32,871 nt of DNA from a virus (IMGVR_UViG_3300027509_000010); one strand, 5' to 3'. Counted from the stretch's first letter, positions 570 through 32,871 are shown. Notes: generated from the letters alone by a model not told the origin. Translations and numbers: made by a program.

Positions 570-916
570 CGGGAGAGTTTCTGGTCGTTGACGTAGGTGG
601 AGGCGGAACCGGCGAGCCAGAGGCCCAGGCGGAGTCCGGCGTTGCGCCAGAATGGGCGACGGACAGGGGACTCCCAGAGCGCTCCGCCGATTTCGATGGT
701 GTAGACCAGGCGGTCCCGGTGCTTGTGGCCGGGGGCCACGACGACGTCGGAGTGGCGGGCGTGGAGGGCGAACTCGTCGGCCCTGGTCTGGGCCTGGAGG
801 CTGTTGGCGTAGGTGTCGATGCACCACCAGCGGCGACCCAGGGCCAGGTAGTGGAGATATGCCTCCATCTGGTGTGGCTCACCGATGCAGATGGAGGCGA
901 TGCGAAACTGGGGCAT
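566..916 (-). CDS. Hypothetical protein, 116 aa
   Basis: Internal ATG of ORF 566..1114 overlaps the TAA of the upstream 61-aa gene by 1 nt. Composition is rich in W/Y/I/F/K, unlike the Gly/Val/Ala-rich antisense frame. Confidence 0.65.
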   Translation of the reverse strand: MPQFRIASICIGEPHQMEAYLHYLALGRRWWCIDTYANSLQAQTRADEFALHARHSDVVVAPGHKHRDRLVYTIEIGGALWESPVRRPFWRNAGLRLGLWLAGSASTYVNDQKLSR

Positions 917-1101
917 TACTGGCCGTACTTGGTGCGGAGGGTTTCTCCGGTGTAGATGACGGCGCCGTCGGTGTCGCTGTCGAGCTGGCGGGAGATGGCG
1001 TCCCAGCTCAATCCCTCCCCTCGACGTTCGGCGACCCAGTCCGGGAGGGCCTGGTCGAGCTTGATGTGGGCGAGTGTTTCCTGGGGTGTCTGTTTGGTCA
1101 T
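916..1101 (-). CDS. Small helix-turn-helix DNA-binding protein, 61 aa; first gene of the early operon
   Basis: The segment GLSWDAISRQLDSD has an HTH-like turn and recognition helix. The gene sits at the head of the long minus-strand gene string, divergent from the plus-strand gene at 1198. Confidence 0.6.
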   Translation of the reverse strand: MTKQTPQETLAHIKLDQALPDWVAERRGEGLSWDAISRQLDSDTDGAVIYTGETLRTKYGQ

Positions 1102-1197
1102 AGTCGCAGATCATATGGCAGATGGTTTGGAGAGGTCGGGATGGTGGCGGTGGGCGGGCCTATCGTTGACGGAATCCCTACAGAAAGCAACACACCC
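1102..1197. promoter_or_regulatory. Divergent intergenic control region
   Basis: 96-bp gap between divergent genes. On the minus strand TATGAT (revcomp of 1111-1116) lies 9 nt before the ATG at 1101 with no SD, which looks leaderless. GCAGAT is directly repeated at 1106-1111 and 1118-1123 around a CATATG palindrome. On the plus strand there is a TATCGT (TANNNT) at 1161-1166. Confidence 0.35.
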
Positions 1198-2454
1198 ATG
1201 ACAACCAACCGAGCGACACGGCCCCTGTTGGTCGTCGCACTCCTGGCCATGCTCCTGTCGAGCTTGTTCATTGCGACGGCCTCCGACTCCCAGGCCCAGG
1301 ACGGCGCTACCTGTCCGGCCGGGTTTCAATTGACGGCCGACGCCACCGCGTGTTTCCAGGCGGCGACGACGTCGACCAGCCCAGGAGTATGCGCCACTGG
1401 CCAGCCCACTCCCGACTCCCAGAATTGCTACGTCCTGGCGCGAGCTACAACCGAGACCGGCGAGGCCGTATGCCCAGATGACTACTCTCCAGACGACTCT
1501 CTTGGTGGGACGTGTGCTCGATTCGAGGCCGCCGCCCAGGACGCCGACATCTGCCCCGCTGGCGCCCGTGGAACTCCTGGCGCTTGCTACATCCTCGTGG
1601 CCAAGGGCTCGGACTCGGCGCCCGCTTGCACGGCGGAGGGCGCGGCCGCTGGCGGTGTCGTCTCTGGCTCCACTTGCGTCATCCCAGGACCGGCCCCGGA
1701 GGCTGGCACCAGGTGCCCCGTATCGGCAACGGTGACAGAGGCGGACGGTTCATGCTTTGAGACGGTCAGCCAGAACGTCTCCCCTGGCGCTTGCTCGGTC
1801 CCCTACATCGAGGTCGGCACCATCTGCAAGTTTCTCCCACCACTGGTCCAGGACGGTGGCTATGTCTGCCCAGAGGTTGCCGGTGTCACGATTGACAACG
1901 CCAGCCACAATCCAGGAACCCACACCAAGCTGACCCTCTGCTCCTACACCCCGGCCGCTATCAACACTGGATGTCCAGCCGGGACCACCCAGGTCGGCGA
2001 GACTTGCCGACGACCTCACCCTCTGGAGAACACTGGGTTGGCTTGCCAGGCGCCGTTTACCATCATTGACGGAGATACGTGTGTCCGCCACGAGGCCACG
2101 GTCATCATGGACGGCCAGTGCCCCACCACCTCGACGGAGGACACGGCGAACAATTGCCGCAAACCAGTCGCCAACCAGGACGGCCCATACATCTGCCCGA
2201 ACGGCGGGGCGCTCTCCGGGACGTCGTGCGTGTTCACTGCTGGGTTCCTGATTGACACGGACTCCATCTCCTACATGTGCGAGGCCGGTGACAGCGCCGT
2301 CCTCGCTGGGCAAGCGGTCTGTCTCCTGGCTGGCCCCACTGATGTCGTCGGTGTTGGATGCCTCCAGGGTGTCCTCTCGACGGACGGCCAGTTCTGCCTC
2401 GTGGACCTGGTCGTGACTCCGGCCTCGGTTCCTGTGCCAAGCTTTACTGGCTGA
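1198..2454 (+). CDS. Secreted cysteine-rich repeat protein, 418 aa, 14 two-Cys modules
   Basis: Sec-type signal peptide MTTNRATRPLLVVALLAMLLSSLFIATA/SD. The mature part has 28 Cys arranged as 14 pairs spaced 10-15 residues apart (one pair 23), and 8 pairs begin with CP, often as CPxG. It is a plus-strand gene followed by a strong hairpin terminator. Confidence 0.8.
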   Translation: MTTNRATRPLLVVALLAMLLSSLFIATASDSQAQDGATCPAGFQLTADATACFQAATTSTSPGVCATGQPTPDSQNCYVLARATTETGEAVCPDDYSPDDSLGGTCARFEAAAQDADICPAGARGTPGACYILVAKGSDSAPACTAEGAAAGGVVSGSTCVIPGPAPEAGTRCPVSATVTEADGSCFETVSQNVSPGACSVPYIEVGTICKFLPPLVQDGGYVCPEVAGVTIDNASHNPGTHTKLTLCSYTPAAINTGCPAGTTQVGETCRRPHPLENTGLACQAPFTIIDGDTCVRHEATVIMDGQCPTTSTEDTANNCRKPVANQDGPYICPNGGALSGTSCVFTAGFLIDTDSISYMCEAGDSAVLAGQAVCLLAGPTDVVGVGCLQGVLSTDGQFCLVDLVVTPASVPVPSFTG

Positions 2455-4696: not shown

Positions 4697-4887
4697 TTGA
4701 GCCAGCCCGATAGTCCGGTCCGGCCCTTGACGACCATGGCCGCCTTGCCCTCGTGGAGGGAGCAGTAGCGGCCGGGGTTGTAGATGGACAGGATGGTCCC
4801 GCACCCCTCGGCGCATCGGCGGCCCTCGACCTTGGCCTTGGGCTCGTGGGTGACGGTCTCTCCTGGCCGGTTCCGTAACGTCGCCAT
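4693..4887 (-). CDS. Small zinc-binding protein, 64 aa
   Basis: Start overlaps the LuxR gene stop by 1 nt. The motif is CAEGCG-x11-CSLH. Confidence 0.7.
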   Translation of the reverse strand: MATLRNRPGETVTHEPKAKVEGRRCAEGCGTILSIYNPGRYCSLHEGKAAMVVKGRTGLSGWLK

Positions 4888-5186
4888 TAGAGGAGCGCCT
4901 CCGGGACCTGATCGGCGGCGCCTGGGTGGAGGGCACCCATGACCACAATGGCCTTGTCCAGTTGCTTGACCCTGTAGCCCAGGACCAGGGCGACGGCCTT
5001 GGTTTGGCTGGGGACGTCGAGCTTGCGGAGGATGGCCTTGACCTGGTTGCGGACGGTGCCCTCGCCTTTCTTGAGTTTGGTGGCGACCTCGGCGATATCG
5101 AGGCCCTTGGTGAGGAGGCGGAGGACGTCGACCTCGGCCGGGGTGAGTGTCTTTATGAGCGAACCCAGAGGCTTGCGGCCGGTCAT
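4887..5186 (-). CDS. LuxR/GerE-family helix-turn-helix transcriptional regulator, stand-alone, 99 aa
   Basis: LTPAEVDVLRLLTKGLDIAEVATKLKKGEGTVRNQVKAILRKLDVPSQTKAVAL matches the GerE-type HTH pattern (LT.rE..vL.l...G....eIA..L..s..TV..h...i..KL.v..r..Av). ATGA overlap with the upstream gene. Confidence 0.88.
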   Translation of the reverse strand: MTGRKPLGSLIKTLTPAEVDVLRLLTKGLDIAEVATKLKKGEGTVRNQVKAILRKLDVPSQTKAVALVLGYRVKQLDKAIVVMGALHPGAADQVPEALL

Positions 5187-20803: not shown

Positions 20804-22297
20804 CTAGAACGGGTCGAAATCGTAGTCCTCGTCATAGGCGGTGGACTTGGGCTCGATGGCGCCGGAGGCCCAGACCCCCACGGTCATGGCGGCGAGGGCG
20901 ACGGCGGCGGAGCTTTGTGCCCAGGCCCAGCGCTGGACCTTCTCGCCGTCCTCGCCCTGGGCGACTCCGTAGGCTCGGACGTTGGCGGCGCTGATGGCGT
21001 TGGTGATGTCGATGTCGCCCAGGTGCCAGAGCTTGCCCTCCTCGATTTGGTTGGCGACGTTCTGGCAGGCGGAGACGTAGCCGGTGGTCCCTACTCGGAC
21101 GACGGGGACCTCTGGTGTGGCGGCGGAGCAAACACCCTCCACCTCCTTGGCGAGTGAGCTGGCTGGACCCATTGAGTCGTAGGCCACGGCGTCCGGCCGG
21201 TTCTTGGCGACGAGGGCGGCGAGTCTTGCGGGGACCCAGGTGATGCCGGGGGAGGATTCGATGGTCTCGGTGTGGAGGTCTCCGTCGACTCGGTGGCCGG
21301 TGGCGTTGATGAGGGCGCCGTCCTGTTCGGGGTTGAGGGCGACGGTGTAGACCAGGCCGCCCTCGATGCTGGACTTGCTGTCGACCTGGGCGGCCCAGTC
21401 CCCGGTGGCAATCTTGTCCTGTTTGGTTCCCTTGTCTCCGGGGAGTGGGTCCCAGGCGCCAAGGTGTTCGCGGACGAATGTCTTGGGGAGGAGGAGCCGC
21501 TGGTTGACCATCCAGTCCTCATTGAACCTGCCGAACTCCATGGCGGAGCTGGCCAGGTACCAGTTGGCACGGTCGTCCTCGTCCGGGAGGATGAACACTG
21601 GCCGCCCGTGCTGGTCCATCGTCCAGCTTTCCGCGGTGCGCTCCAGCCACACCATGGTCCCCACTCGCTGGACGAACGAGCCGCCAGCAAAGTCCTTGCC
21701 GTTGGCGATGATGGCCTTGAGTCGGAGACCCCACCAGTAGGCGGATGAGGCCAGGCCGCCAGAGCCAGCGAACCATATTTGGGAATGTTCGGCGACGCCA
21801 CTGGCGGGCGAGCTGGCGGCGACGTGCTCCTCCGGGAGATGCTGGGCCTCGTCGTAGACCACCAGGGACACGTCGTCCAGGCCGCGGCCTGCCTTGCCAG
21901 AGCGAGCACGGTAAGCGATCACGCCACCAGACAGGAACGAGATGGTGGGGCCGGGAGACTTGCCGTATGCGATCTGGTCGATTTCGGCCTCCAGCCATGA
22001 GCCCATGATGGCGGCCTCCGCTCGGTCGAATGCGTTCTTGGCCGTCTCCATGTGGTGGGCCGTGTGCATGATGCGATCGGAGAGGACGTGGGCGCCGTAA
22101 AGCTCGCGCGCCTGGAGTCGTTCGCCCTTGCCGTCCTGGCGGGTGTCGCAATCGGCGACGGTCTTGGATTTCCAGGAGCCGCGCCGGTCCACGACCATCT
22201 CCTCCTGGAGGCATCCCGCTTGGTACGGGTCGAATGTCGTTCCTAGTGAGGCGGCGAACTCGATGCACTCGTCCGCCAGTGCGGTGGCCTTGCTCAT
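20804..22297 (-). CDS. Terminase large subunit, 497 aa
   Basis: Walker-B-like LVVYDEAQHL in the N-terminal ATPase half and a nuclease-like C-terminal half. The gene lies upstream of portal and has an ATGA overlap with the upstream small gene. Confidence 0.9.
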   Translation of the reverse strand: MSKATALADECIEFAASLGTTFDPYQAGCLQEEMVVDRRGSWKSKTVADCDTRQDGKGERLQARELYGAHVLSDRIMHTAHHMETAKNAFDRAEAAIMGSWLEAEIDQIAYGKSPGPTISFLSGGVIAYRARSGKAGRGLDDVSLVVYDEAQHLPEEHVAASSPASGVAEHSQIWFAGSGGLASSAYWWGLRLKAIIANGKDFAGGSFVQRVGTMVWLERTAESWTMDQHGRPVFILPDEDDRANWYLASSAMEFGRFNEDWMVNQRLLLPKTFVREHLGAWDPLPGDKGTKQDKIATGDWAAQVDSKSSIEGGLVYTVALNPEQDGALINATGHRVDGDLHTETIESSPGITWVPARLAALVAKNRPDAVAYDSMGPASSLAKEVEGVCSAATPEVPVVRVGTTGYVSACQNVANQIEEGKLWHLGDIDITNAISAANVRAYGVAQGEDGEKVQRWAWAQSSAAVALAAMTVGVWASGAIEPKSTAYDEDYDFDPF

Positions 22298-22677
22298 TTC
22301 TTGGCCCCGGTCCGCTTGCCTGGTCTCCGGCCGACAGTCTTCTTGCGACTGGAGCCAGCCCCGCGGCGGCCCTCGAACTTGGCGACGGTCCCATCCTTGA
22401 CGCCCTTGTCCTCCGCTGCTTTCTTCTTGGCGGCCGCCGTCTCCTCCTTGGCCTCCGCCGCCGCTCGGAGTCGGTCCGTGTCGATGCGGGTCAGTCGCTC
22501 GTTGATTTGCCGAAGCTCCCGCGACAGCGTCGATGCCTTGGAGCCATCGGTCTCCGCCTTGAGCAATTTGCGGAGCTGGACGCGCTGTTCCTTGAGGTCC
22601 TTGATTTCCTCGGTGCGCGCTTTCGACGTCGAGGAGCGCGAGCGCTTGCGGGCGGCGGAGCTGGCGGACTCGGTCAT
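22294..22677 (-). CDS. Candidate terminase small subunit / basic coiled-coil DNA-binding protein, 127 aa
   Basis: It is translationally coupled (ATGA) to TerL. The protein is very basic with coiled-coil character. The call rests on position only. Confidence 0.45.
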   Translation of the reverse strand: MTESASSAARKRSRSSTSKARTEEIKDLKEQRVQLRKLLKAETDGSKASTLSRELRQINERLTRIDTDRLRAAAEAKEETAAAKKKAAEDKGVKDGTVAKFEGRRGAGSSRKKTVGRRPGKRTGAKK

Positions 22678-22916: not shown

Positions 22917-23375
22917 ATGCGCATTCAACCTACATACCAAACCATCGGCGCGGAAGGTGTTGGTAACTGTATGCCAGCGTCTATTGCAACGATCACTGGC
23001 ATTGACCTGGCGGAGATTCCGCACTTCGTTGAGGCGGCGGTGGAGGCGGGGGCGGTGGCCGTTGATGGCTCCACCCTTGAGCCCATGGCCTGGCTCGGGG
23101 TGTTCGCCACGGTCCAGGGTTGGCTCACTCGGAACGGTTGGTCGCTCGATGTTGTCGAGCGCAACGGTGCGAGTCAGCTCGCTCACTCGGAGCCGGTGAT
23201 GTGCTTGGCGTTGGTGATGTCCCAACAGGTGGAGGGTGCCCCCCACGTCATCGTTGTGGATGGGGCGGGTCGTCAAGTGTGGGACCCCCAGTCGCTCAAT
23301 GAGCGAAGCTATCAGCCGGACGAGGTGCTGGCGATGGGGGCGGTGACCAAGCTGGCCTGGCCGCCTCGGGACTGA
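22917..23375 (+). CDS. Papain-fold cysteine peptidase, C39-like, 152 aa
   Basis: YQTIGAEGVGNCMPASIATITG fits a Gln...Cys nucleophile context, and APHVIVVDGAGRQVWDPQ fits a His...Asp context, as in peptidase C39-like domains. No signal peptide is present. It is a plus-strand gene with its own promoter-like element and terminator. Confidence 0.6.
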   Translation: MRIQPTYQTIGAEGVGNCMPASIATITGIDLAEIPHFVEAAVEAGAVAVDGSTLEPMAWLGVFATVQGWLTRNGWSLDVVERNGASQLAHSEPVMCLALVMSQQVEGAPHVIVVDGAGRQVWDPQSLNERSYQPDEVLAMGAVTKLAWPPRD

Positions 23376-23387
23376 GTCGGTGGGTGT

Positions 23388-23427
23388 GGGGGGGTGGGTG
23401 GATACCCACCCCCCCTCCTCGTTTTGG
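23388..23427 (+). terminator. Intrinsic terminator of the peptidase cassette
   Basis: gggggggtgggt (23388-23399), loop ggat, acccaccccccc (23404-23415), a 12-bp perfect stem, then tcctcgttttgg. The minus-strand version lacks a U tract. Confidence 0.65.
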
Positions 23428-23431
23428 TTGG

Positions 23432-23980
23432 TCATGTTGTGGCCTGGTTGATGAGTTGGGTGATGGGTTCGATGGCTCTGGTGTGGGTGGCTGGGAGTCC
23501 CAGGTGGTTTAGGTCTGGGTCTCGGACGGCGGCCTGGGTGAGGTGCCACAGCCAGAGGGCGTCCGCCTCGTCCTCGCTGTTGCCGTCGTAGTTCAGGCGC
23601 CGGACGGCGGCCAGGAGGACGTCGGTCTTGCTGGCGTTGCCCTTGCCAGTGGCGTAGGTCTTGATGGCCTGGGGTGGGACCTCCACGAACTGTATGCCTC
23701 GGAAGATGAGGCGCTTGCGGAGGATGCCTCCGAACTCGGCGAGGTCGTAGGCGCTGGAACCCTTGGCGTTGTAGGCGTATCGCTCGATGGCGACGAGGGT
23801 GGCTGGCTCGACTGCCTCGACCACGTCGGCGGCGAGGTTGTCGTATCGCTCGATGCGGAGGCGAGGGCTGGCGTCCTGGTCCTGGTGCTTGGTGCTGGTG
23901 TGGACGCTGGCCTCGCCTTGGGGGTTGATGACTCCGGTGGCTCGGATGCTGGGGTCGATGGCGGCGATGAGGTGGCTCAT
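23432..23980 (-). CDS. RuvC-like Holliday junction resolvase, 182 aa
   Basis: The start MSHLIAAIDPS supplies the catalytic Asp. VAIERYAY supplies the Glu, and NSEDEADALWL the C-terminal acidic pair. This is the typical RuvC-fold motif order. Confidence 0.8.
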   Translation of the reverse strand: MSHLIAAIDPSIRATGVINPQGEASVHTSTKHQDQDASPRLRIERYDNLAADVVEAVEPATLVAIERYAYNAKGSSAYDLAEFGGILRKRLIFRGIQFVEVPPQAIKTYATGKGNASKTDVLLAAVRRLNYDGNSEDEADALWLWHLTQAAVRDPDLNHLGLPATHTRAIEPITQLINQATT

Positions 23981-24015
23981 GGTGTTGGCTTTCTGTAGGT
24001 GGACTGGATGGTAGT

Positions 24016-24306
24016 TCGCGACACTCGCGACACTCGCGACAGGTGCGGCGGCCGCTCTGGGTGTCGCGAGTGTCGCGTGTCGCGTGGGGTTGCCGGAGGC
24101 CGGTGGGCTGACACGGTCACACAATCCCATAATCCCTGGAAACAACAGGGAGAGAGAGAGAGTTATCGTTTTGACCCTTTAACGCGACACGCGACTGGCG
24201 CGACACTTCGCCACTGTCAGCGGTTGCCTCGCGCTCTGGGTGGTCGGTGTCGCGTGGGTGTCGCGTCGGCTCCGGGACTGACGGAGGTGTCGCGAGGTGT
24301 CGCGAG
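24016..24306. repeat. Iteron-like array: 12 copies of (T)CGCGACAC / GTGTCGCG(A) flanking an AT-rich tract; candidate replication origin
   Basis: Forward copies lie at 24016-24042 (x3, tandem), 24183-24190 and 24199-24206. Inverted copies lie at 24061-24084 (x3), 24247-24254, 24258-24265, 24287-24296 and 24297-24306. The stretch 24121-24180 is 26/60 GC and includes (AG)6 at 24151-24162. Confidence 0.6.
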
Positions 24307-26978
24307 GCGTCCACGACGGTCTGGACGAGGAGGGTGGTGTCAGAGCACTGGAGCGCCCACTTAGCCACTCCGCTGGCCGTGGTCCCGGCCGGTGCCACCC
24401 AGCCCGCCACCACCAGCTCCAGGAGTGCCGCCTCGACGTCCTCGGCCTTGTGAGCTTTCCCTCCTGGCGAGCGCGGCCCGGTGCGGGTGATGTCTCGAAG
24501 GGTGTAGGTCTCGGTGGCCCTCTCGTCTCCGTTGCGCTTGGTTCGGCACCACCACTGGACCAGCTCGACGGCCAGAGTGACGTCGGCCTCCTCGGCGGTG
24601 CCGCATAGGTTGACGATGTGGGCGAGCCAGTACTGGCCCAGCTCGATGGCGGACTGGACGGTGGCCACACCTATGTCCGGCGCCGGGACCCTCCCCCCCT
24701 CCATCTCAATAGCGAGATGGAACAGGACGGCGGCCCTGGCGGTCGAGGACACCAGCTTGGGGATGTGGTCGGTGATGCGCCCCTCATATTCTCCGCCTGG
24801 CCGCTGCTTGACCTCCAGGGATTGATGCCACGCCAGGAACGTCCGCTGGGCGTCCGGGTCGAGGCGAAACTCCTGGGTGTCCGCCTTGGCGATGCGCTCC
24901 AGGAGCTGCTCCCACTCCGGCGCCAGGTGCGGCGGCGGTGCATTGAGGACGGTGCGGTCGGCGTAGCCAGGGACGAAATACGGTTCCGCTGGCATGAACC
25001 TCTGGGTGAGACCCCGCCCCGCATACTCGGCGTTCCGATAGATGCGGTGGGCCACGATGGGTTGCATGGCCAGGCTGATGACAGCGCGGGCGTTGTCCAC
25101 TATCAGCTCCCTCCCATCGGCGCGGTCCACGATGAGGCGGCCAGCGTCCCACCCTATGAGTAGGTTCTTGAGGGCCGGTGCCTTGCCTGGGTTGGCGTAG
25201 CGGTCGAGGGATTCCAGGAGGTCACCCTCGGAGCTGATGGCGTTGAGCTTGCCCCTGTTCCCGGCGAGGATGCGGACCATGCCCTCCGGGGTGAAGTCAT
25301 CAGACCAGAACTTTCGGACCTCGGGGATGTCGACCTCCACTCGTTGGCCGATGATGCGGACGGCCTCGTCCATGGCGGCGCCTTGCTCTGTTGGGTCCTT
25401 GGCCTTGGCCGCCCGCTGCTCCTCAATGGACAGGGCCTTGTCGAGGACCCTGGCCTTGGACTCTGCCTCTGCCCGGACCATAGAGGAGCGGGCGCCCACC
25501 CTGTCGGCGGTGGACTCCAGGCCCTTGATGAGTCTGGAGATGGTGGGCGACTTGCCGCCTCCGGTGCGCATCGCCAGGACCAGGTAGAGGTTGCATGGTT
25601 CGATCCAGCCGCCTCCGATGTGGATGGTGGCCCCCGACTCATTCCCGGCCGCTGACAGACAGGCGAGGGCTTTCTGCCCTGGGACGGCCAGTGGGGTCTT
25701 GAGGGCGTCGGAGATGGCGGTGGTGTAGGTGCCGACGATGCCGGGGAGGACGTGGACGGGGAACGCCGGGGGATGCCTACGGACGATAAGCGGCCGGGGT
25801 TGACCCTCCACTGGAGGTGCAGACTCCGCCCCCGTTTCGCCACTCTGGGTGGCGGAATCGGGTGAGCTCGCAGCTGCCGGCGCCACTGTCCGTGGGATTT
25901 CCTCGAGCAAATCGTGGGAGTGAGTGGACGACTCGGCGGCCTCCAGGAGCCACGCATCGGACTCCGCATTGAGGACAGCGGAGGCGGCGGTCGAGTGGTC
26001 CCCTCCGTGGTCGAGCGTCGCCATCAGACCAAAGGCGTCATACCAGCGGTCTTGCTCCAGCTTGTCATCGGCGGAGGAGTGACAGTTGAATGAGCCGTCC
26101 GGGTAGGTGGTGCCGGACTTGCCAGCGGTGTCCTTGCCTGGGCGGCGCCAGTGCTGTTGCCCAGGTGGCGCCCGGTCTGGCATTGGGGTCCAGCCGTGAC
26201 GGAGGAGGACCTCGGAGCATGGGGTCACGTCGTTGTAACGGTTCCCTGGTGTGTCCGCTCCATCGTGCTGGCGGAGCTGGTCCATGCGGCCGTGGTCGAC
26301 TGGCTCGGCGAGGAGGTAGGGCTCCAGGTCGTCCAGGTCGTAGGTGACAGGTGTGTCCTTGTAATGGGCGGCCACGGTGGGGGCGAGGCCGTCCACCTTG
26401 ATGTTGATGGTGCCGGGGAGTCGGAGGACTCTGTCCAGGTTGGACACGTTGTCGAGGTTGTATCCGGCCTGGACGAACCTGGCGTCCCATGTGTTGTGCC
26501 AGGCCCTGGAGAGGTCCGCGACGTCGGCGGCGTCCTGGGGCTCGGTGAATAGCCAGTAGAGGTGGAGGCCGTAGCCGGTGTCCACTACGGCGGATGGGCG
26601 GAGGGGGAACTCGGCGAGGATGGCGGCGGCCGCCTCTGGTGTCGGGTTGGGTAGCTGGCTGGGTTTGCGTTTGTGGGCCTGGTCGTGGTGGTAGTCCACG
26701 TCCAGCCAGAGTCCTGGGATGGTGACGACGTCGTCGCGGGTGCCGCGGCCCTCGACCACGTCGCGGCGGGTGCCTACCCCCCACCAGACGTTGTGCGTTC
26801 CGTGGAGGTCCTCGGCGACGATGTCGGCCAGGAGGTGGCGGTCGGCGACGGTGGCCCACTCGATGACCTGGTCCCCGGCGCCGTTGATGGCGAACAGGTT
26901 GAGGTATTCGTCCTGGGGGTGTTCGGAGTAGAGGAGGTCCAGCCAGTCGGTGAGTTGTTGGCGGTCGTCTGGTGTCAT
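24117..26978 (-). CDS. Bifunctional primase-polymerase (AEP/PrimPol) fused to a DUF3987-like P-loop helicase, 953 aa
   Basis: AEP motifs are LWLDVDY (DxD), DTGYGLHLYW (sGxGxHxY) and VLRLPGTIN. A Walker A motif MRTGGGKSPT lies downstream. The start MTPDDRQQL overlaps the upstream TGA as ATGA. Confidence 0.88.
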   Translation of the reverse strand: MTPDDRQQLTDWLDLLYSEHPQDEYLNLFAINGAGDQVIEWATVADRHLLADIVAEDLHGTHNVWWGVGTRRDVVEGRGTRDDVVTIPGLWLDVDYHHDQAHKRKPSQLPNPTPEAAAAILAEFPLRPSAVVDTGYGLHLYWLFTEPQDAADVADLSRAWHNTWDARFVQAGYNLDNVSNLDRVLRLPGTINIKVDGLAPTVAAHYKDTPVTYDLDDLEPYLLAEPVDHGRMDQLRQHDGADTPGNRYNDVTPCSEVLLRHGWTPMPDRAPPGQQHWRRPGKDTAGKSGTTYPDGSFNCHSSADDKLEQDRWYDAFGLMATLDHGGDHSTAASAVLNAESDAWLLEAAESSTHSHDLLEEIPRTVAPAAASSPDSATQSGETGAESAPPVEGQPRPLIVRRHPPAFPVHVLPGIVGTYTTAISDALKTPLAVPGQKALACLSAAGNESGATIHIGGGWIEPCNLYLVLAMRTGGGKSPTISRLIKGLESTADRVGARSSMVRAEAESKARVLDKALSIEEQRAAKAKDPTEQGAAMDEAVRIIGQRVEVDIPEVRKFWSDDFTPEGMVRILAGNRGKLNAISSEGDLLESLDRYANPGKAPALKNLLIGWDAGRLIVDRADGRELIVDNARAVISLAMQPIVAHRIYRNAEYAGRGLTQRFMPAEPYFVPGYADRTVLNAPPPHLAPEWEQLLERIAKADTQEFRLDPDAQRTFLAWHQSLEVKQRPGGEYEGRITDHIPKLVSSTARAAVLFHLAIEMEGGRVPAPDIGVATVQSAIELGQYWLAHIVNLCGTAEEADVTLAVELVQWWCRTKRNGDERATETYTLRDITRTGPRSPGGKAHKAEDVEAALLELVVAGWVAPAGTTASGVAKWALQCSDTTLLVQTVVDASRHLATPPSVPEPTRHPRDTDHPEREATADSGEVSRQSRVALKGQNDNSLSLPVVSRDYGIV

Positions 26979-29840: not shown

Positions 29841-30380
29841 TTATCCGAGAAGCGACGCCGGAGCGACTGGTGGAGCCGCTGCTGGTGCAGGAGCTGGAGC
29901 CGCTGCTGGTGCAGGAGCTGGAGCCGCTGCTGGTGCAGGAGCTGGAGCCGCTGCTGGTGCAGGAGCTGGAGCCGCTGCTGGTGCAGGAGCTGGAGCCGCT
30001 GCCTCGGTGAGGTAGTGGCCCTTGGCGACGTCCAGGGTGAAACGCTTGGGGGCGTTCTGGCCAGGCTGGGCCTCGCCGTCCTCGGTGTAGATGAGGACGT
30101 GGCGGTCGCCGGACTCTGGCTTGGCCGCTGACAGGAGACTCTTGGCCATCCCCTGGCTGGCGGTGTACCAGAACAGTTGCGGCCATGGCGCCTCCGGGTC
30201 TCCCATTGCGATGCCGTCAGAGACCGGGGCCTCATGCTCGGCGCAACGGTAGAGGACCTGGGGCGAGCGCTTGCCCTTGTACTCGTTGACCTCCATGCGG
30301 ACGTACTCTCCGCCGATCCAGTCGCCCATACGGTGGGGCTTCCAGTAGTTGCTTGCTGTCTCGAATTCGGACCAGCTCAT
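29841..30380 (-). CDS. Hypothetical protein with a C-terminal (AAAPAPAP)n repeat, 179 aa
   Basis: ATGA overlap with the upstream gene. A globular N-terminal part of about 125 aa is followed by a perfect Ala/Pro repeat. Confidence 0.75.
   Translation of the reverse strand: MSWSEFETASNYWKPHRMGDWIGGEYVRMEVNEYKGKRSPQVLYRCAEHEAPVSDGIAMGDPEAPWPQLFWYTASQGMAKSLLSAAKPESGDRHVLIYTEDGEAQPGQNAPKRFTLDVAKGHYLTEAAAPAPAPAAAPAPAPAAAPAPAPAAAPAPAPAAAPAPAPAAAPPVAPASLLG
29872..30003. repeat. Perfect 24-bp tandem repeat, 5.5 copies (ggagccgctgctggtgcaggagct)
   Basis: Units at 29872, 29896, 29920, 29944 and 29968 are identical, and a 12-bp partial unit follows at 29992. On the minus strand they encode AAAPAPAP repeats. 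Confidence 0.95.
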
Positions 30381-30688
30381 AGTTGGGTTTCCTTGTTGGT
30401 TGGTGATTGCGAGGCGGGCGCCTCTATGTCACGAAGTGACAGATCATATGGCAAGTCATTTGCCGGGTGGTGGATGTGGCACTCGGGGTGGGGGTTGTGG
30501 TCTCCGTGGCACCAGCCCTGGCGGGTCATGTTGCGGCGGAAGTCCTCCGGCGTCGACCAGGTGACTGGGTGGCCGTCACGTAGGCCCTCCGACAGCGGGG
30601 GCACGATGAGACTGTCCCCGTCTCTGGACCCAGCCGAACCATGCACCTCGGACACTGGTGCCAGACCGGCGCCGTCGTCGTCTCTCAT
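30377..30688 (-). CDS. His/Cys-rich hypothetical protein, 103 aa
   Basis: ATGA overlaps at both ends support translation. The cluster is WCHGDHNPHPECHIHHP. Confidence 0.6.
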   Translation of the reverse strand: MRDDDGAGLAPVSEVHGSAGSRDGDSLIVPPLSEGLRDGHPVTWSTPEDFRRNMTRQGWCHGDHNPHPECHIHHPANDLPYDLSLRDIEAPASQSPTNKETQL

Positions 30689-32802
30689 TCCTTGCCTCCG
30701 TCGATGACGGTGAGGGCCGGGGCTGGCGCCTCGTCTGGATGCTTGGCGGCGAGGTGGTTGGCGAGACCCCGCTCAGTCTTATAGGTCTTGGGACAGTGGG
30801 GACACTGGCCTGGGTCGATGGTCGGCGGGGCCTCGGTTGGCTCCCCTGGGGTCGGTGGGACTGCCTTGGGCTTGGCCTTGGGTCCGGCGCTGGCCGCCAC
30901 CACCTTATTGCCGTCGTCCTTGGGTTTGACCAGGACGGACTCCGGTGGGTCCGCTTGCATCGTGAGGGCGTAGAGGACTGGGTCGTTGGCGACGGCCTTG
31001 GTGGAACGAGGTGAGGGGCGGCCGTGGCGGTTGGCCTGCCAGCGGGCGACCCCGCGGGCCACGGTCTTAGTCCCCCAGTATTGCTCCAGCTTGTACTCCC
31101 GGTCACGAGCGGTGGCCTCCAGGTAGTCGGCGTCCCCCACGGGGTCCACACTGATCTCATCGAGCGACCAGTGGCGGACCAGGGCCACCAGGCGCTCCAG
31201 CTCCAGGTCAGACATTGCCGAACCGACAGCGTCTTTGTTCCCCGTGGCCGCCCAGAGAATCGCCAGGGCCTCCTTGTCCAGGACGTTGTGGACCTGGAAC
31301 GCTACACACTCGGCGCGTCGAGCGGCCACGGCCTCGGCGACGTCGAGGATTTCGGTGATGCGCTCGACGTGGGCGGACGAGGCCTTGGGCGAGGACAGGT
31401 TGGGGATGTCCTCGCGCATCCTGGTCAGGTTCACGCGGGCGGCGAGGTCCTGGGGCAGGGCGTGCCAGCGCGGCCCGATGGCCTCGACGGCGGCCGGGTC
31501 AGCCTTGACAAACGTGGGAGTATCTGGCCCTGGCGACGCCTCCACCGCGGCCATGGCCGGAGTCCTGGTCGGTGGCGCCGGGGTCACGACGAATGGGAGC
31601 TGGTTGTGGGCCTCGACCCTGTCCAGCCACTCGTGAATCTGGCGGAAGTCTCCGGGGGTGTAGGTGTAGCGGGAGGTCTCGGCGCCCTCCGGCCCCCCGA
31701 ACGGTGGGATGGTGCCGGTGACCCAGAGGGTGCCCAGGTCTAGGAGGGCCTTGGCGCCTTTCTTGACGGTGGCCGGGTCCTCGGAGTGCTCCATGGCCAT
31801 GATGGCCGCAATGCGCGCCCTGGCGACGTCGTACGGGGTGGACGGTGTCGCTGTCGGGATGGGCTCCGGTGGGAATATCTCGTCGCCGATGACGGAGCGC
31901 TTGCCGACGTTGGACCAGTCGCCGGTCGGGATGGCTCCGACGAAGATGGCGAACTGGGATTCGTCGCAGACCACTGGTTTGACGTGGAGGCCGGTGGACC
32001 AGTTCTTGGACTGTTGCCACTCGGGGAGGGTGTAGGTCTTGCCTCCGTTGACCTTGACGTTGCGGGCGGGGTGGACGGGGAATACGTGCTCCTCGTCCGG
32101 TCGGATGGAGATGGCGACACCACCAGCGACCTCGGGGATGGGCTCCCGGCGCCAGGTGCCATCCTCGCCCTTGATGACCATGTAATCGGCGTAACGGATG
32201 GCGGCGAGCTGGAGGGCGACCTCTGGCCAGATGCCGGACCTCGATGTCTTGAGGTCGGCGACGACGAGGCCGTAGCCGGGGAGGTAGGCGATGAGGTCGA
32301 GGGTCCCGGCGTAGCCGTAGGTCTCGGAGAACACGGTGACCTCGACGTGGTCACAGACCGGTTGCCACTCTCGGAAAAAGCGTTCCACCACTGGAGCGAA
32401 CGGCCCGCACGATGTGCGACACCAATCGGACCCAGGGCCGCCCAGGGCCAGCTCCTCGAAATACTCGTGGGCGGCGTCGCCCTGGTCCCCGGCGTGGTCA
32501 CGGTCGCGGTCTGATGCCTTGGCGATCCGGTCCATGATGACTTTGGGGTCATCGGGGTATTGGGTGGAAACCTCCAGCCACTCCTCCAGGCCCCAGTAGG
32601 CATACTCGGCGGTGCCGTATTTGATCCAGTTGTCGAGCTGTTTGGGGATGCCGCGCTTGATGACGGTGGTGATGGAGGTGTAGCGGTAGTCCAGGGGCCG
32701 GTGGTCTGGTTGGTAGTCGGCGGGGAGGGGCGGGTTGTGGGCGGATGGGTGGAGGTATTGGCGGCCGGTGCGGCCGGGGACTGCTAGCTCTGGCTGGGTC
32801 AT
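30685..32802 (-). CDS. PD-(D/E)XK (RecB/Cas4-like) nuclease with a long C-terminal extension ending in a classical C2H2 zinc finger, 705 aa
   Basis: Nuclease motifs are GYAGTLDLIAY (D), VVADLKTSRSG (D-x-K) and QLAAIRYADY (QxxxY). The C-terminal CPHCPKTYKTERGLANHLAAKH has the form C-x2-C-x3-Y-x5-L-x2-H-x4-H and maps to 30739-30804. Confidence 0.8.
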   Translation of the reverse strand: MTQPELAVPGRTGRQYLHPSAHNPPLPADYQPDHRPLDYRYTSITTVIKRGIPKQLDNWIKYGTAEYAYWGLEEWLEVSTQYPDDPKVIMDRIAKASDRDRDHAGDQGDAAHEYFEELALGGPGSDWCRTSCGPFAPVVERFFREWQPVCDHVEVTVFSETYGYAGTLDLIAYLPGYGLVVADLKTSRSGIWPEVALQLAAIRYADYMVIKGEDGTWRREPIPEVAGGVAISIRPDEEHVFPVHPARNVKVNGGKTYTLPEWQQSKNWSTGLHVKPVVCDESQFAIFVGAIPTGDWSNVGKRSVIGDEIFPPEPIPTATPSTPYDVARARIAAIMAMEHSEDPATVKKGAKALLDLGTLWVTGTIPPFGGPEGAETSRYTYTPGDFRQIHEWLDRVEAHNQLPFVVTPAPPTRTPAMAAVEASPGPDTPTFVKADPAAVEAIGPRWHALPQDLAARVNLTRMREDIPNLSSPKASSAHVERITEILDVAEAVAARRAECVAFQVHNVLDKEALAILWAATGNKDAVGSAMSDLELERLVALVRHWSLDEISVDPVGDADYLEATARDREYKLEQYWGTKTVARGVARWQANRHGRPSPRSTKAVANDPVLYALTMQADPPESVLVKPKDDGNKVVAASAGPKAKPKAVPPTPGEPTEAPPTIDPGQCPHCPKTYKTERGLANHLAAKHPDEAPAPALTVIDGGKE

Positions 32803-32871
32803 GCTTGGGTCTCCAGGGTGTACTCGATGGTGGTGGATTGATCGATGCCCAGGGCGACGGTGTGGGTGGGG
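32745..32871. repeat. Right copy of the 127-bp terminal duplication
   Basis: Identical to 1-127. It duplicates the 3' end of CDS 55..288 and the start codon region of CDS 30685..32802. Confidence 0.95.

What the first reader, a model, noticed from the sequence alone, without database searches (positions are those of the whole stretch)
24016..24306. Iteron array around an AT-rich (AG)6 tract at the 3' end of the primase-helicase gene: candidate replication origin
Twelve copies of an 8-9 bp motif occur within 290 bp. Three tandem TCGCGACAC units lie at 24016-24042. After an 18-nt spacer, three inverted units lie at 24061-24084, and these two sets can pair over at least 16 bp. Two more forward copies lie at 24183-24190 and 24199-24206. 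Four inverted copies lie at 24247-24254, 24258-24265, 24287-24296 and 24297-24306. The overall orientation pattern is FFF|RRR ... FF|RRRR.

Between the clusters, 24121-24180 is 26/60 GC (43%) in a genome of about 65% GC, and it contains (AG)6 at 24151-24162. I did not notice the motif elsewhere in the window.

Iterons next to an easily melted tract, sitting inside or beside the replication initiator gene, is the layout of lambda ori in gene O and of iteron plasmids. The last ~65 codons of the primase-helicase ORF (...SRHLATPP...RHPRDTDHP...) are built from these repeats, so coding and cis-acting roles overlap.
Basis: partly seen in the sequence, partly recalled or inferred. Interest (0 to 1): 0.75.

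Follow-up and report, generated by a model that had tools for sequence, protein, structure and literature searches.

The report
Phage replication origin beside primase-helicase gene
A cluster of about thirteen copies of one 8-base motif around an easily melted stretch, at the end of a phage's primase-helicase gene, is most likely where that protein starts copying the phage DNA; this layout is already known from other mobile elements, so it is a good but ordinary find.

Summary
GTGTCGCG occurs 11 times exactly, plus one 1-mismatch and one 2-mismatch copy. All copies lie in 24017-24304 of a circular 32.7-kb phage genome, and there are none elsewhere (P about 2e-26).

The layout is 3+3 inverted copies, then a 96-nt spacer, then 3+4 inverted copies. 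The spacer holds the genome's second most AT-rich 60-mer and an (AG)6 tract. The array straddles the stop codon of a 953-aa primase-polymerase/DUF3987 helicase.

Comparison with other loci supports an origin:
- Two viral contigs encode homologues 25-30% identical to the window protein. Both carry the same 8-mer in arrays at the same gene end.
- Two further homologues carry different iterons there, again in both orientations around an AT-rich tract.
- Of 71 primase-polymerase/helicase fusion genes from viral and bacterial contigs, 35 have such two-orientation arrays at the stop codon. Only 2.7% of control windows reach the same repeat count.

The best reading is an origin bound by the initiator's C-terminal winged-helix-like domain, as in SaPI Rep, SCCmec Cch2 and P4 alpha. 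This makes it a new member of a known kind. Binding and origin activity are untested.

The parts
24017..24042 (.). Iteron set A, distal half. On the + strand it reads CGCGACAC, CGCGACAC, CGCGACAG with a 9-bp period. It is intergenic.
24061..24084 (.). Iteron set A, proximal half: GTGTCGCG x3, with starts 9 and 7 bp apart. With 24017-24042 it forms a 17-19 bp inverted repeat. As single-stranded DNA the hairpin folds at -33.9 kcal/mol (z -7.0).
   Evidence: (I3, I5)
24085..24181 (.). Spacer and putative unwinding element. Its AT-rich core is 24121-24180 (43% GC in a 65.5% GC genome). It holds (AG)6 at 24151-24162, which is a (CT)6 tract on the coding strand, and GATAAC on the minus strand at 24162-24167, a hexamer shared with the spacers of L018 and L025. 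The stop codon of the primase-helicase lies at 24117-24119.
24182..24206 (.). Iteron set B, proximal half: CGCGACAC, CGCGACTG (degenerate), CGCGACAC. It is an 88% inverted copy of 24061-24085, so the two triple-iteron units face each other across the spacer. It lies inside the ORF tail.
   Evidence: (I2)
24247..24304 (.). Iteron set B, distal half: GTGTCGCG at 24247, 24258, 24287 and 24297, as two doublets with 11-bp and 10-bp periods. It lies inside the ORF tail.
24117..26978 (-). Primase-helicase gene (953 aa, P0001). It has an N-terminal primase-polymerase domain, a DUF3987 helicase domain (residues 427-790) and a C-terminal helical bundle plus winged-helix-like domain. The last 65-70 residues or so are a tail encoded by the origin.
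24339..24587 (-). Coding region for the predicted winged-helix-like domain (about residues 798-880), the inferred iteron reader.
   Evidence: weak fold matches only

Best explanation
This is the phage's origin of replication, of the type served by a self-loading primase-helicase initiator.

**Shown**
- Thirteen GTGTCGCG-type sites form two inverted clusters (3+3 and 3+4).
- The clusters flank a 96-nt spacer that contains one of the most easily melted stretches of the genome.
- The array sits exactly at the 3' end of a primase-polymerase/DUF3987-helicase gene.
- The same architecture recurs at the same gene end in distant homologues, with the same or with different repeat sequences.

**Inferred**
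1. The C-terminal winged-helix-like domains of the helicase bind the 8-bp iterons. About six sites per cluster would fit one hexamer on each side.
2. The two assemblies melt the AT-rich, CT-tract spacer.
3. The helicase rings load onto single strands.
4. The N-terminal primase-polymerase makes the first primers.
5. A host polymerase then extends them, bidirectionally at first.

Because the origin overlaps the end of the gene, the last 65 or so codons are simply the origin read in frame. GC3 falls there, and homologues of the window protein do not share this tail. Transcription of the early operon runs through the origin and may help to open it.
For: **Clustering and uniqueness of the motif**
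-.

**Anatomy**
- Inverted triple-iteron units flank the AT tract (I2).
- The AT tract is the second-lowest-GC 60-mer of the genome.

**Gene identity**
- DUF3987, E 8.9e-57.
- PHROG DNA helicase and DNA polymerase/primase families.

**Same iteron next to homologues**
- A scan for three tandem GTGTCGCG returned 23 viral loci.
- Two of them, L018 and L025, encode homologues 25-30% identical, and each array sits at the 3' end of that gene.
- None of 61 control loci had the helicase plus C-terminal domain with an array at its end.
- The window and L018 share GTGTCGCG x3, a spacer, then CGCGACAC x3, in the same orientation relative to the gene.

**Different iterons, same architecture**
- L027 has CATCCGGGAC-type repeats. 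The 8-mer GTCCCGGA counts 14 copies in the 800-bp region downstream of the gene, out of 15 in the locus.
- L050 has TTGGGGACAT, with all 7 copies in the locus in this region.
- In both loci the repeats lie in both orientations around an AT-rich tract just after the stop codon.

**Generality**
- Among 71 primase-polymerase ORFs of at least 600 aa, 39 have an 8-mer present at least 5 times within 800 bp of the stop. In 35 of these the 8-mer occurs in both orientations.
- Only 53 of 1946 control windows (2.7%) reach that count.
- In 27 of the 35 arrays, the span contains a 60-mer within the lowest 2% GC of its locus.

**Homologue tails**
- 32 of 42 tails carry tandem tripeptide repeats of differing sequence, against 25 of 210 body windows.

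**C-terminal domain**
- An AlphaFold2 model (pLDDT 87) shows a helical bundle followed by an H-strand-H-H-strand-strand unit.
- Its best PDB neighbours are the lid plus winged-helix regions of MCM and ORC, and isolated winged-helix domains.

**Precedent**
- SaPI Rep/PriRep5 (PMC9371898).
- SCCmec Cch2, whose C-terminal domain binds iterons downstream of its gene (PMC7581432).
- P4 alpha and pRN1/BIP-1 (PMC4234260).
Against: - Nothing here shows binding, melting or initiation.
- No PDB fold match reaches E <= 1e-3 (best 0.075), so the winged-helix assignment is weak. Sequence and profile searches of PDB found nothing.
- Cumulative GC skew has no inflection at 24 kb. This is uninformative in a genome transcribed almost entirely from one strand.
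- One homologue locus (L033) has no array at its gene end.
- The array lies at the boundary between the replication and packaging modules in the window and in L018, so a packaging or late-regulation role is not excluded by position alone.
- Tandem arrays of arbitrary 8-mers are common in viral contigs. Controls gave 52 and 9 loci against 23 for this motif, so the number of GTGTCGCG arrays by itself means nothing.
- No DnaA box lies near the array in the window.
Confidence: 0.8

Rival explanations
1. Packaging signal. The repeats are binding sites for the small terminase (as the R sites of lambda cosB are), and the AT-rich tract holds or adjoins the cos or pac cut.
For: - The array lies at the end of the early module, 1.3-1.7 kb upstream of the putative terminase genes at 22294-22677 and 20804-22297.
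- In L018 the array is followed by an HNH endonuclease-like ORF and then by a small DNA-binding ORF that directly abuts the large-terminase-like ORF and may be the small terminase.
Against: - In the window, RuvC and an opposite-strand gene separate the array from the terminase genes.
- The association that recurs across unrelated genomes is with the primase-helicase stop codon, usually within 0-60 bp. Neighbouring genes are not conserved.
- In the window, in L018 and in many homologues the array is inside the primase-helicase ORF. A genome end there would split the gene.
- L025 has a perfect DnaA box inside its array.
- In L027, none of four ORFs tested in the 3.9 kb downstream matched any PHROG family, so no terminase was recognised there.
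Confidence: 0.06
2. Transcriptional control element at the early/late boundary. The set A hairpin would act as a terminator or attenuator of the early operon, and the repeats would be operators for a phage regulator. Candidates are the LuxR-type HTH protein at 4887-5186 and the 61-aa protein at 916-1101.
For: - Set A forms a very stable hairpin (-33.9 kcal/mol, z -7.0) in the 136-bp gap before the next gene.
- The genome encodes a GerE/LuxR HTH protein.
Against: - The consensus scan found no terminator-like or promoter-like site, and no T-run follows the hairpin.
- Thirteen sites in both orientations around an AT-rich tract, with half of them inside a coding region, is not a usual operator layout.
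- The architecture tracks primase-helicase genes across genomes that share no other detectable genes.
- Rfam gave only spurious sub-threshold hairpin hits.
- A secondary terminator role for the hairpin is compatible with an origin and cannot be excluded.
Confidence: 0.06
3. Partition or copy-control site. The repeats would serve as a centromere (parS-like), or as handcuffing or incompatibility sites for a plasmid-like prophage state.
For: Arrays of about 8-bp repeats in both orientations are known as parS sites in some actinobacteriophages. This is my recollection of the parABS literature and was not checked here.
Against: - No ParA, ParB, integrase or RepA-type family was detected among the early-region and accessory ORFs scanned.
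- The array is tied to the primase-helicase gene in relatives.
Confidence: 0.03
4. The repeats have no cis function. They would be a coding repeat, or slippage debris, in a disordered C-terminal tail.
For: Seven of the copies lie in the ORF and give a low-complexity tail.
Against: - The copies occur in both orientations, and six are outside the ORF.
- GC3 drops in the tail.
- In L027 and L050 the arrays lie wholly downstream of the stop codon.
- The exact 8-mer is kept in proteins only 25-30% identical.
Confidence: 0.02

Closest known systems
SaPI origins with Rep/PriRep5 self-loading helicase initiators (Staphylococcus aureus pathogenicity islands; PMC9371898)
   Same: - The origin sits at the 3' end of the initiator-helicase gene.
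- It has 6-12 short iterons, split by a central AT-rich region, with iterons on the two sides pointing in opposite directions.
- The helicase carries a C-terminal DNA-binding domain.
- In SaPI5 the primase and helicase are fused.
- A model with one hexamer on each side has been proposed.
   Different: - The iterons here are 8 bp, not 5-6 bp.
- The helicase domain here is Pfam DUF3987, and the primase is of the primase-polymerase type.
- No sequence or significant fold match to the solved Rep structures was found.
- The origin here partly overlaps the ORF.
- The host genome is a high-GC tailed phage, not a satellite.
SCCmec Cch2 helicase and its putative origin (PMC7581432)
   Same: [quoted passage not shown]
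- Hexamers and dodecamers form.
- A separate or fused primase-polymerase primes at the origin.
   Different: - Cch2 has three direct repeats, whereas here there are about 13 sites in inverted clusters.
- The helicase family differs (Primase_Cterm/D5_N type).
- The primase is a separate protein complex in SCCmec.
Satellite phage P4 alpha protein with ori and crr
   Same: One polypeptide combines primase, helicase and a C-terminal winged-helix origin-binding domain that recognises octamer iterons present in both orientations. This is as summarised in PMC4234260, plus my own recollection of the type I iteron TGTTCACC.
   Different: - The P4 primase is of the Toprim type.
- P4 needs a second cis region (crr) several kb away. 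No second cluster exists here.
pRN1 ORF904 and Bordetella phage BIP-1/BPP-1 replication proteins (PMC4234260)
   Same: The domain order is primase-polymerase, helicase, then C-terminal winged helix. The origin lies directly 3' of the gene. A large inverted repeat or stem-loop is present there. Set A here is such a stem-loop.
   Different: The pRN1 origin is described as a stem-loop without iterons. Here the stem-loop is itself built of iterons, and a second cluster and an AT-rich spacer are present.
Lambda ori inside gene O, and RepA-type iteron plasmids
   Same: Initiator-binding repeats lie next to an AT-rich tract. In lambda the origin is embedded in the initiator's coding sequence.
   Different: - Lambda O and plasmid Rep proteins are not helicases and must recruit host DnaB.
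- Their iterons are 17-22 bp and mostly direct.
- No O-like or Rep_3-like protein and no DnaA box are present here.

Membership tests
Origin served by a self-loading primase-helicase initiator (SaPI Rep / Cch2 / P4 alpha / ORF904 class) | The initiator gene encodes a hexameric-type P-loop helicase, fused or adjacent to a primase | tested here: met
   DUF3987 matches at E 8.9e-57 over residues 427-790 (numbered on the 953-aa product). PHROG families for DNA helicase and for DNA polymerase/primase match residues 7-228. Oligomeric state was not tested.
Origin served by a self-loading primase-helicase initiator (SaPI Rep / Cch2 / P4 alpha / ORF904 class) | A C-terminal winged-helix DNA-binding domain on the helicase | tested here: inconclusive
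   The AlphaFold2 model of residues 690-890 has pLDDT 87, with H-strand-H-H-strand-strand topology after a helical bundle. The top Foldseek PDB hits are MCM/ORC lid plus winged-helix regions, VPS25, cullin WHB, the Cdt1 winged helix and TubR, but none reaches E <= 1e-3. There is no Pfam hit for this region.
Origin served by a self-loading primase-helicase initiator (SaPI Rep / Cch2 / P4 alpha / ORF904 class) | Multiple short repeats at or immediately after the 3' end of the initiator gene, confined to that place in the genome | tested here: met
   There are 11 exact and 2 degenerate copies in 24017-24304, straddling the stop codon at 24117, and none elsewhere.
Origin served by a self-loading primase-helicase initiator (SaPI Rep / Cch2 / P4 alpha / ORF904 class) | A central AT-rich region with iterons on both sides in opposite orientation | tested here: met
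   The inverted 25-bp triple-iteron units 24061-24085 and 24182-24206 flank a spacer that holds the second-lowest-GC 60-mer of the genome (I2).
Origin served by a self-loading primase-helicase initiator (SaPI Rep / Cch2 / P4 alpha / ORF904 class) | The architecture is conserved with the gene in relatives, while the iteron sequence may change | tested here: met
   L018 and L025 carry the same 8-mer. L027 and L050 carry different iterons. L033 has none. Of 71 fusion genes, 35 have two-orientation arrays at the stop codon, against 2.7% of control windows reaching the same repeat count.
Origin served by a self-loading primase-helicase initiator (SaPI Rep / Cch2 / P4 alpha / ORF904 class) | Sequence-specific binding of the initiator to the iterons, and initiator-dependent replication of the fragment | not testable with these tools
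   This needs EMSA or footprinting and a replication assay.
Lambda-type origin within the O gene | The initiator is an O-type protein (N-terminal DNA-binding domain, recruits the P-DnaB complex), and the iterons lie in the middle of its gene | tested here: not met
   The initiator is a primase-helicase. No O/P-like families were found. The repeats lie at the extreme 3' end and beyond it.
RepA/pi/TrfA-type iteron plasmid origin | 17-22 bp direct iterons, a Rep_3/WH1-WH2 initiator, and DnaA boxes | tested here: not met
   The repeats are 8 bp and in both orientations. No Rep family hit was found. No DnaA box within one mismatch lies near the array.
parS/ParB centromere | ParA and ParB genes adjacent to the repeat arrays | tested here: not met
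   No ParA or ParB family appeared among 24 ORFs (the early, accessory and array-flanking genes) scanned with Pfam, 11 of them also with PHROGs. The structural-gene region was not scanned.
cos/pac packaging site | Terminase-binding repeats adjoining the terminase genes; virion DNA ends at the site | not testable with these tools
   Position argues against this reading: two genes intervene, and the array lies inside the primase-helicase ORF. Virion ends are unknown, because the contig is a circular assembly with a 127-bp overlap.

The most novel reading that the evidence does not exclude
In this large family of primase-polymerase/DUF3987 helicases, the origin may be more than a neighbour of the gene. 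It may be deliberately kept inside the reading frame, so that the same DNA serves both as the initiator's binding array and as the disordered linker leading to a conserved C-terminal tip.

- After the winged-helix-like domain, 32 of 42 homologue tails carry translated iterons.
- 19 of 42 then end in an acidic tip with an aromatic or hydrophobic last residue (DDDW, NPF, DIF and the like). This resembles the SSB and T7 gp4 C-terminal tails.
- 20 of 149 homologues contain 'xVDN'. In L025 this peptide is the translation of a perfect DnaA box.

If the frame is under selection, initiator binding at the origin could also gate synthesis of the tip-bearing isoform. The window's own protein, which stops in the AT spacer, would then be a naturally tip-less variant.
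Probability: 0.25. Interest if true: 0.55.

Novelty: new member of a known kind. Interest (0 to 1): 0.4.

Why it matters
It gives a concrete, testable origin for an uncultured high-GC phage. It also gives a simple rule that locates candidate origins in many phages and prophages that encode primase-polymerase/helicase fusions: look for a two-orientation short-repeat array with an AT-rich centre at the stop codon of the gene. About half of 71 such loci showed one.

The cognate pairs of iteron and C-terminal domain found here could be used to study how these helicase initiators read DNA, and to build orthogonal replicons for actinobacteria. Three pairs are in hand: GTGTCGCG in the window, L018 and L025; CATCCGGGAC in L027; and TTGGGGACAT in L050.

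It does not reveal a new principle of replication initiation.

Tried and rejected
- **Close relatives for alignment.** Megablast of 23400-25400 against the phage collection found nothing. tblastn found only distant helicase matches below 27% identity. The search for related loci with the single protein in viral contigs found none. The only other contig holding the protein is identical over the 15.9 kb retrieved.
- **Word-indexed protein searches.** These were nearly empty, with 7, 8 and 0 hits. The exhaustive phmmer search was what revealed the family: 385 homologues at E < 1e-30, the best at 37% identity.
- **P0002 locus.** No DNA is held for it. P0004 (L002) shares only the primase domain.
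- **Structure.** The model of residues 395-953 built from a 5-sequence alignment was unusable (pLDDT 42). PDB sequence and profile searches were empty.
- **GC skew.** No inflection.
- **Promoter/terminator scan and Rfam.** Nothing meaningful.
- **'GTGTCGCG is a widely shared iteron'.** I rejected this as a claim. Two same-composition control 8-mers gave 52 and 9 tandem-array loci, against 23 for GTGTCGCG.
- **Extending L025 beyond its end.** This failed because the stored record stops there.
- **L033.** Its only array is a one-orientation coding repeat (Q/P-rich) in the upstream gene, not an iteron array.
- **DnaA box in the window.** None found.

Full report
**Context**

The window is a circularly assembled metagenomic contig. 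Bases 1-127 repeat at 32745-32871, so the unique genome is 32,744 bp at 65.5% GC. It comes from JGI sample 3300009073.

Nearly all genes are on the minus strand. In the direction of transcription the order is: small early genes; an exonuclease-like gene; a 953-aa primase-helicase (24117-26978); RuvC (23432-23980); one opposite-strand gene; then large terminase (by gene order and size), portal, protease, capsid and tail genes. Capsid relatives are phages of Microbacterium, Arthrobacter, Curtobacterium, Gordonia and Mycobacterium, at under 31% identity. No close relative exists in the phage collection.

**Observation**

GTGTCGCG occurs 11 times exactly, and all copies lie in 24017-24304. The whole window would be expected to hold 2.6, and 0 of 100 shuffles reached 11. 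One-mismatch sites add only 24035-24042 within the cluster, and elsewhere they are at chance density. A 2-mismatch copy lies at 24190-24197. The Poisson probability of 11 or more exact copies in 288 bp is about 2e-26. No other 400-bp stretch of the genome has an 8-mer clustered in both orientations.

**Anatomy**

On the coding (minus) strand the order is as follows.

| Element | Coordinates | Content |
|---|---|---|
| Set B, distal | 24304-24287 | CGCGACAC x2 |
| Set B, distal | 24265-24247 | CGCGACAC x2 |
| Gap | | 40 nt |
| Set B, proximal | 24206-24182 | GTGTCGCG, CAGTCGCG, GTGTCGCG |
| Spacer | | 96 nt |
| Set A, proximal | 24084-24061 | CGCGACAC x3 |
| Gap | | 18 nt |
| Set A, distal | 24042-24017 | CTGTCGCG, then GTGTCGCG x2 |

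- The two triple units next to the spacer are an 88% inverted repeat of each other (I2).
- The spacer holds the second-lowest-GC 60-mer of the genome and a (CT)6 tract on the coding strand.
- The stop codon at 24117-24119 lies inside the spacer. Set B and the AT tract are therefore translated as the last 65 or so codons, and set A lies in the 136-bp gap before RuvC.
- Set A alone folds, as single-stranded DNA, into a hairpin of -33.9 kcal/mol (z -7.0).
- GC3 falls to 0.62 in the last 50 codons, against 0.78-0.92 over most of the gene. Only the block at codons 351-400 is equally low.
- The best word-indexed homologue aligns only to residue 870.

The tail is therefore shaped by the DNA, not by protein function.

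**The gene**

Pfam finds DUF3987 over residues 427-790 (E 8.9e-57, renumbered on the 953-aa product as). PHROGs finds a DNA helicase family and, for residues 7-228, a DNA polymerase/primase family.

An exhaustive phmmer search finds 385 homologues at E < 1e-30, the best only 37% identical. Most alignments stop at query residues 862-872.

A 28-sequence alignment of residues 690-890 gave an AlphaFold2 model with pLDDT 87. It shows a helical bundle followed by a helix-strand-helix-helix-strand-strand unit. Foldseek against PDB gave no hit at E <= 1e-3. The best neighbours are nevertheless the lid plus winged-helix parts of MCM4/5/6 and ORC4/5, and isolated winged-helix domains: VPS25 (TM 0.68), cullin WHB, the Cdt1 C-terminus and TubR. 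Against predicted viral structures it matches other DUF3987 helicases. I take the winged-helix assignment as plausible, not proven.

**Comparative evidence: the same iteron**

A scan of 2.9 million viral contigs for three tandem GTGTCGCG gave 23 loci. Two of them, L018 (70% GC) and L025 (71% GC), encode homologues of the window's primase-helicase at 25-30% identity, and in both the array is at the 3' end of that gene.

L018 has CGCGACAC x3, GTGTCGCG x3, a 60-nt spacer and CGCGACAC x3, all inside the ORF tail. The window and L018 align as GTGTCGCG x3, spacer, CGCGACAC x3, with a shared GATAAC in the spacer.

Two same-composition control 8-mers gave 52 and 9 loci, so the count of 23 is background. 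However, none of the 61 control loci had this helicase plus C-terminal domain with an array at its end. At 25-30% protein identity, neutral DNA would be unrecognisable. Exact retention of an 8-mer in many copies, in both orientations and at the same place, therefore indicates a selected cis element tied to this protein.

**Comparative evidence: different iterons, same architecture**

L027 and L050 are homologues about 25% identical to the window protein.
- Just after its stop codon, L027 has CATCCGGGAC-type repeats. The 8-mer GTCCCGGA counts 14 copies in that region out of 15 in the locus.
- L050 has TTGGGGACAT, with all 7 copies in the locus there.
- In both, the repeats lie in both orientations around a conspicuously AT-rich tract.
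- L033 has no array at its gene end.

**Generality**

I examined 133 loci that encode a primase-polymerase domain, from viral contigs and bacterial genomes.
- Of the 71 whose ORF runs at least 600 aa (fusions with a helicase), 39 have an 8-mer present at least 5 times within 800 bp of the stop codon. In 35 the 8-mer occurs in both orientations.
- Of the 62 shorter ORFs, 5 reach that count.
- Of 1946 control windows, 53 (2.7%) reach it.
- In 27 of the 35 arrays, the span contains a 60-mer in the lowest 2% GC of its locus. Most arrays begin 0-60 bp after the stop codon.
- Neighbouring genes are not conserved between these loci and the window.

**Homologue tails**

After the position equivalent to residue 870, the tails have a median length of 98 aa. 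Tandem tripeptide repeats occur in 32 of 42 tails, against 25 of 210 body windows. The repeat peptides differ between proteins. Examples are SRVSRVS...DTRDTRD, SHVSHVSHV...THETHGTHD and HARHARHAR, as expected for translated iterons in two orientations.

**Mechanism (inferred)**

By analogy with SaPI Rep/PriRep5, whose C-terminal winged helix binds 6-12 iterons split by an AT-rich centre immediately downstream of rep (PMC9371898), and with SCCmec Cch2, whose isolated C-terminal domain binds the iterons downstream of its gene (PMC7581432), I propose the following.
1. The C-terminal domains of the primase-helicase bind the two clusters of about six sites, one hexamer per side.
2. The AT-rich, CT-tract spacer is melted.
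3. The rings load onto single strands.
4. The N-terminal primase-polymerase primes.

The steps shown here are the anatomy, the uniqueness of the motif, the gene identity and the conservation. The steps inferred are binding, stoichiometry, melting and priming.

**Rivals**

- **Packaging site.** Position near the terminase genes in the window and in L018 suggests it. Against it: two genes intervene; the array lies inside the primase-helicase ORF; it tracks that gene across unrelated genomes; and L025 has a perfect DnaA box within its array.
- **Regulatory or terminator role.** This is possible for the set A hairpin as a secondary function. No terminator- or promoter-like site was found.
- **Partition site.** There is no ParA or ParB.
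- **Pure coding repeat.** This is excluded by the two orientations, the intergenic copies, and the arrays that lie downstream of the stop codon in L027 and L050.

**Comparison with known systems, and novelty**

The closest known systems are SaPI ori/Rep (especially the fused PriRep5), SCCmec Cch2, P4 alpha with its octamer iterons, and pRN1 ORF904 and Bordetella phage BIP-1, whose origin lies directly 3' of a gene for primase-polymerase, helicase and winged helix (PMC4234260). Lambda O and RepA-type plasmids share only the general logic.

I found no paper that links DUF3987 helicases with iterons. The finding is therefore a new member of a known kind. Its useful extra is that the architecture is widespread, and often embedded in the reading frame, in this family.

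**Unresolved**

- Whether the winged-helix-like domain really reads the 8-mer.
- Why L018 and L025 keep the same iteron while L027 and L050 do not, at similar protein divergence.
- What the conserved GATAAC / TGTGGATAAC element of the spacers does.
- Whether the open reading frame through the origin is under selection in relatives whose tails end in an acidic, aromatic tip.

Noticed in passing
Protein tails of homologues P0008-P0156 (no DNA held); compare window 24117-24330: After the stretch that looks like translated iterons, 19 of 42 homologue tails end in an acidic tip whose last residues are aromatic or hydrophobic (for example DDDW, GNLW, DFNPF, AEDPF, DDDIF). This resembles the C-terminal tails of SSB and T7 gp4. 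The window's protein lacks such a tip because its stop codon falls in the AT-rich spacer.
   Followed up: partly
L025:13396-13404; window 24162-24167 (minus strand GATAAC); L018:1053-1061: L025 has a perfect DnaA box (TGTGGATAA) inside its iteron array. Its in-frame translation, 'PVDN', recurs as 'xVDN' in the tails of 20 of 149 homologues: 22 per 19,370 aa, against 2 per 103,018 aa in the protein bodies. The window and L018 keep only GATAAC, and the window has no DnaA box within one mismatch near the array.
   Followed up: partly
L017:557-1432(-), L020:5952-6932(-), L019:6112-6983, L004:1990-2775(-), L012:3431-3553, L021:1017-1162, L024:2098-2296: Tandem GTGTCGCG arrays also occur in unrelated viral contigs of 38-71% GC. 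Several show the layout of iterons, AT-rich tract and inverted iterons. Several lie inside or next to ORFs that look like other kinds of replication initiator (N-termini 'MRIRSIKPEFW...' and 'MARSRMIKPEFF...'). Control 8-mers show that the number of such loci is at background level.
   Followed up: partly
window 29847-30026: A tandem repeat of 12-nt period (24-nt unit TGGAGCCGCTGCTGGTGCAGGAGC, about 7 units), all in one orientation. It lies in a region where the gene calls disagree. It is probably an Ala/Pro-type coding repeat on the minus strand (D1).
   Followed up: no
window 652-2454 (+), probable start near 1159: This is a plus-strand ORF in a genome otherwise transcribed almost entirely from the minus strand. 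It encodes a Cys-rich, Thr/Ala/Gly-rich protein with a signal-peptide-like N-terminus (MTTNRATRPLLVVALLAMLLSSLFIATA...). It has no Pfam hit and may be a moron or host-interaction gene.
   Followed up: no
window 22917-23375 (+): A second plus-strand gene (152 aa, phrog_5845, function unknown) sits between RuvC and the putative small terminase. It creates convergent and divergent transcription at the early/late boundary.
   Followed up: no
window 30685-32802 (-), running into the 127-bp terminal overlap (1-127 = 32745-32871): A 705-aa ORF has an exonuclease-like N-terminal part (phrog_298, E 1e-26) and a weak C2H2 zinc-finger match near its C-terminus. The identical 127-bp ends show that the contig is a circular assembly.
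   Followed up: no
L033:3200-3560: The gene upstream of the L033 primase-helicase contains a long Q/P/W-rich coding repeat (GCAGTGGGG and CCCCGCAG units, one orientation). It mimics an iteron array in k-mer counts but is a protein repeat.
   Followed up: yes
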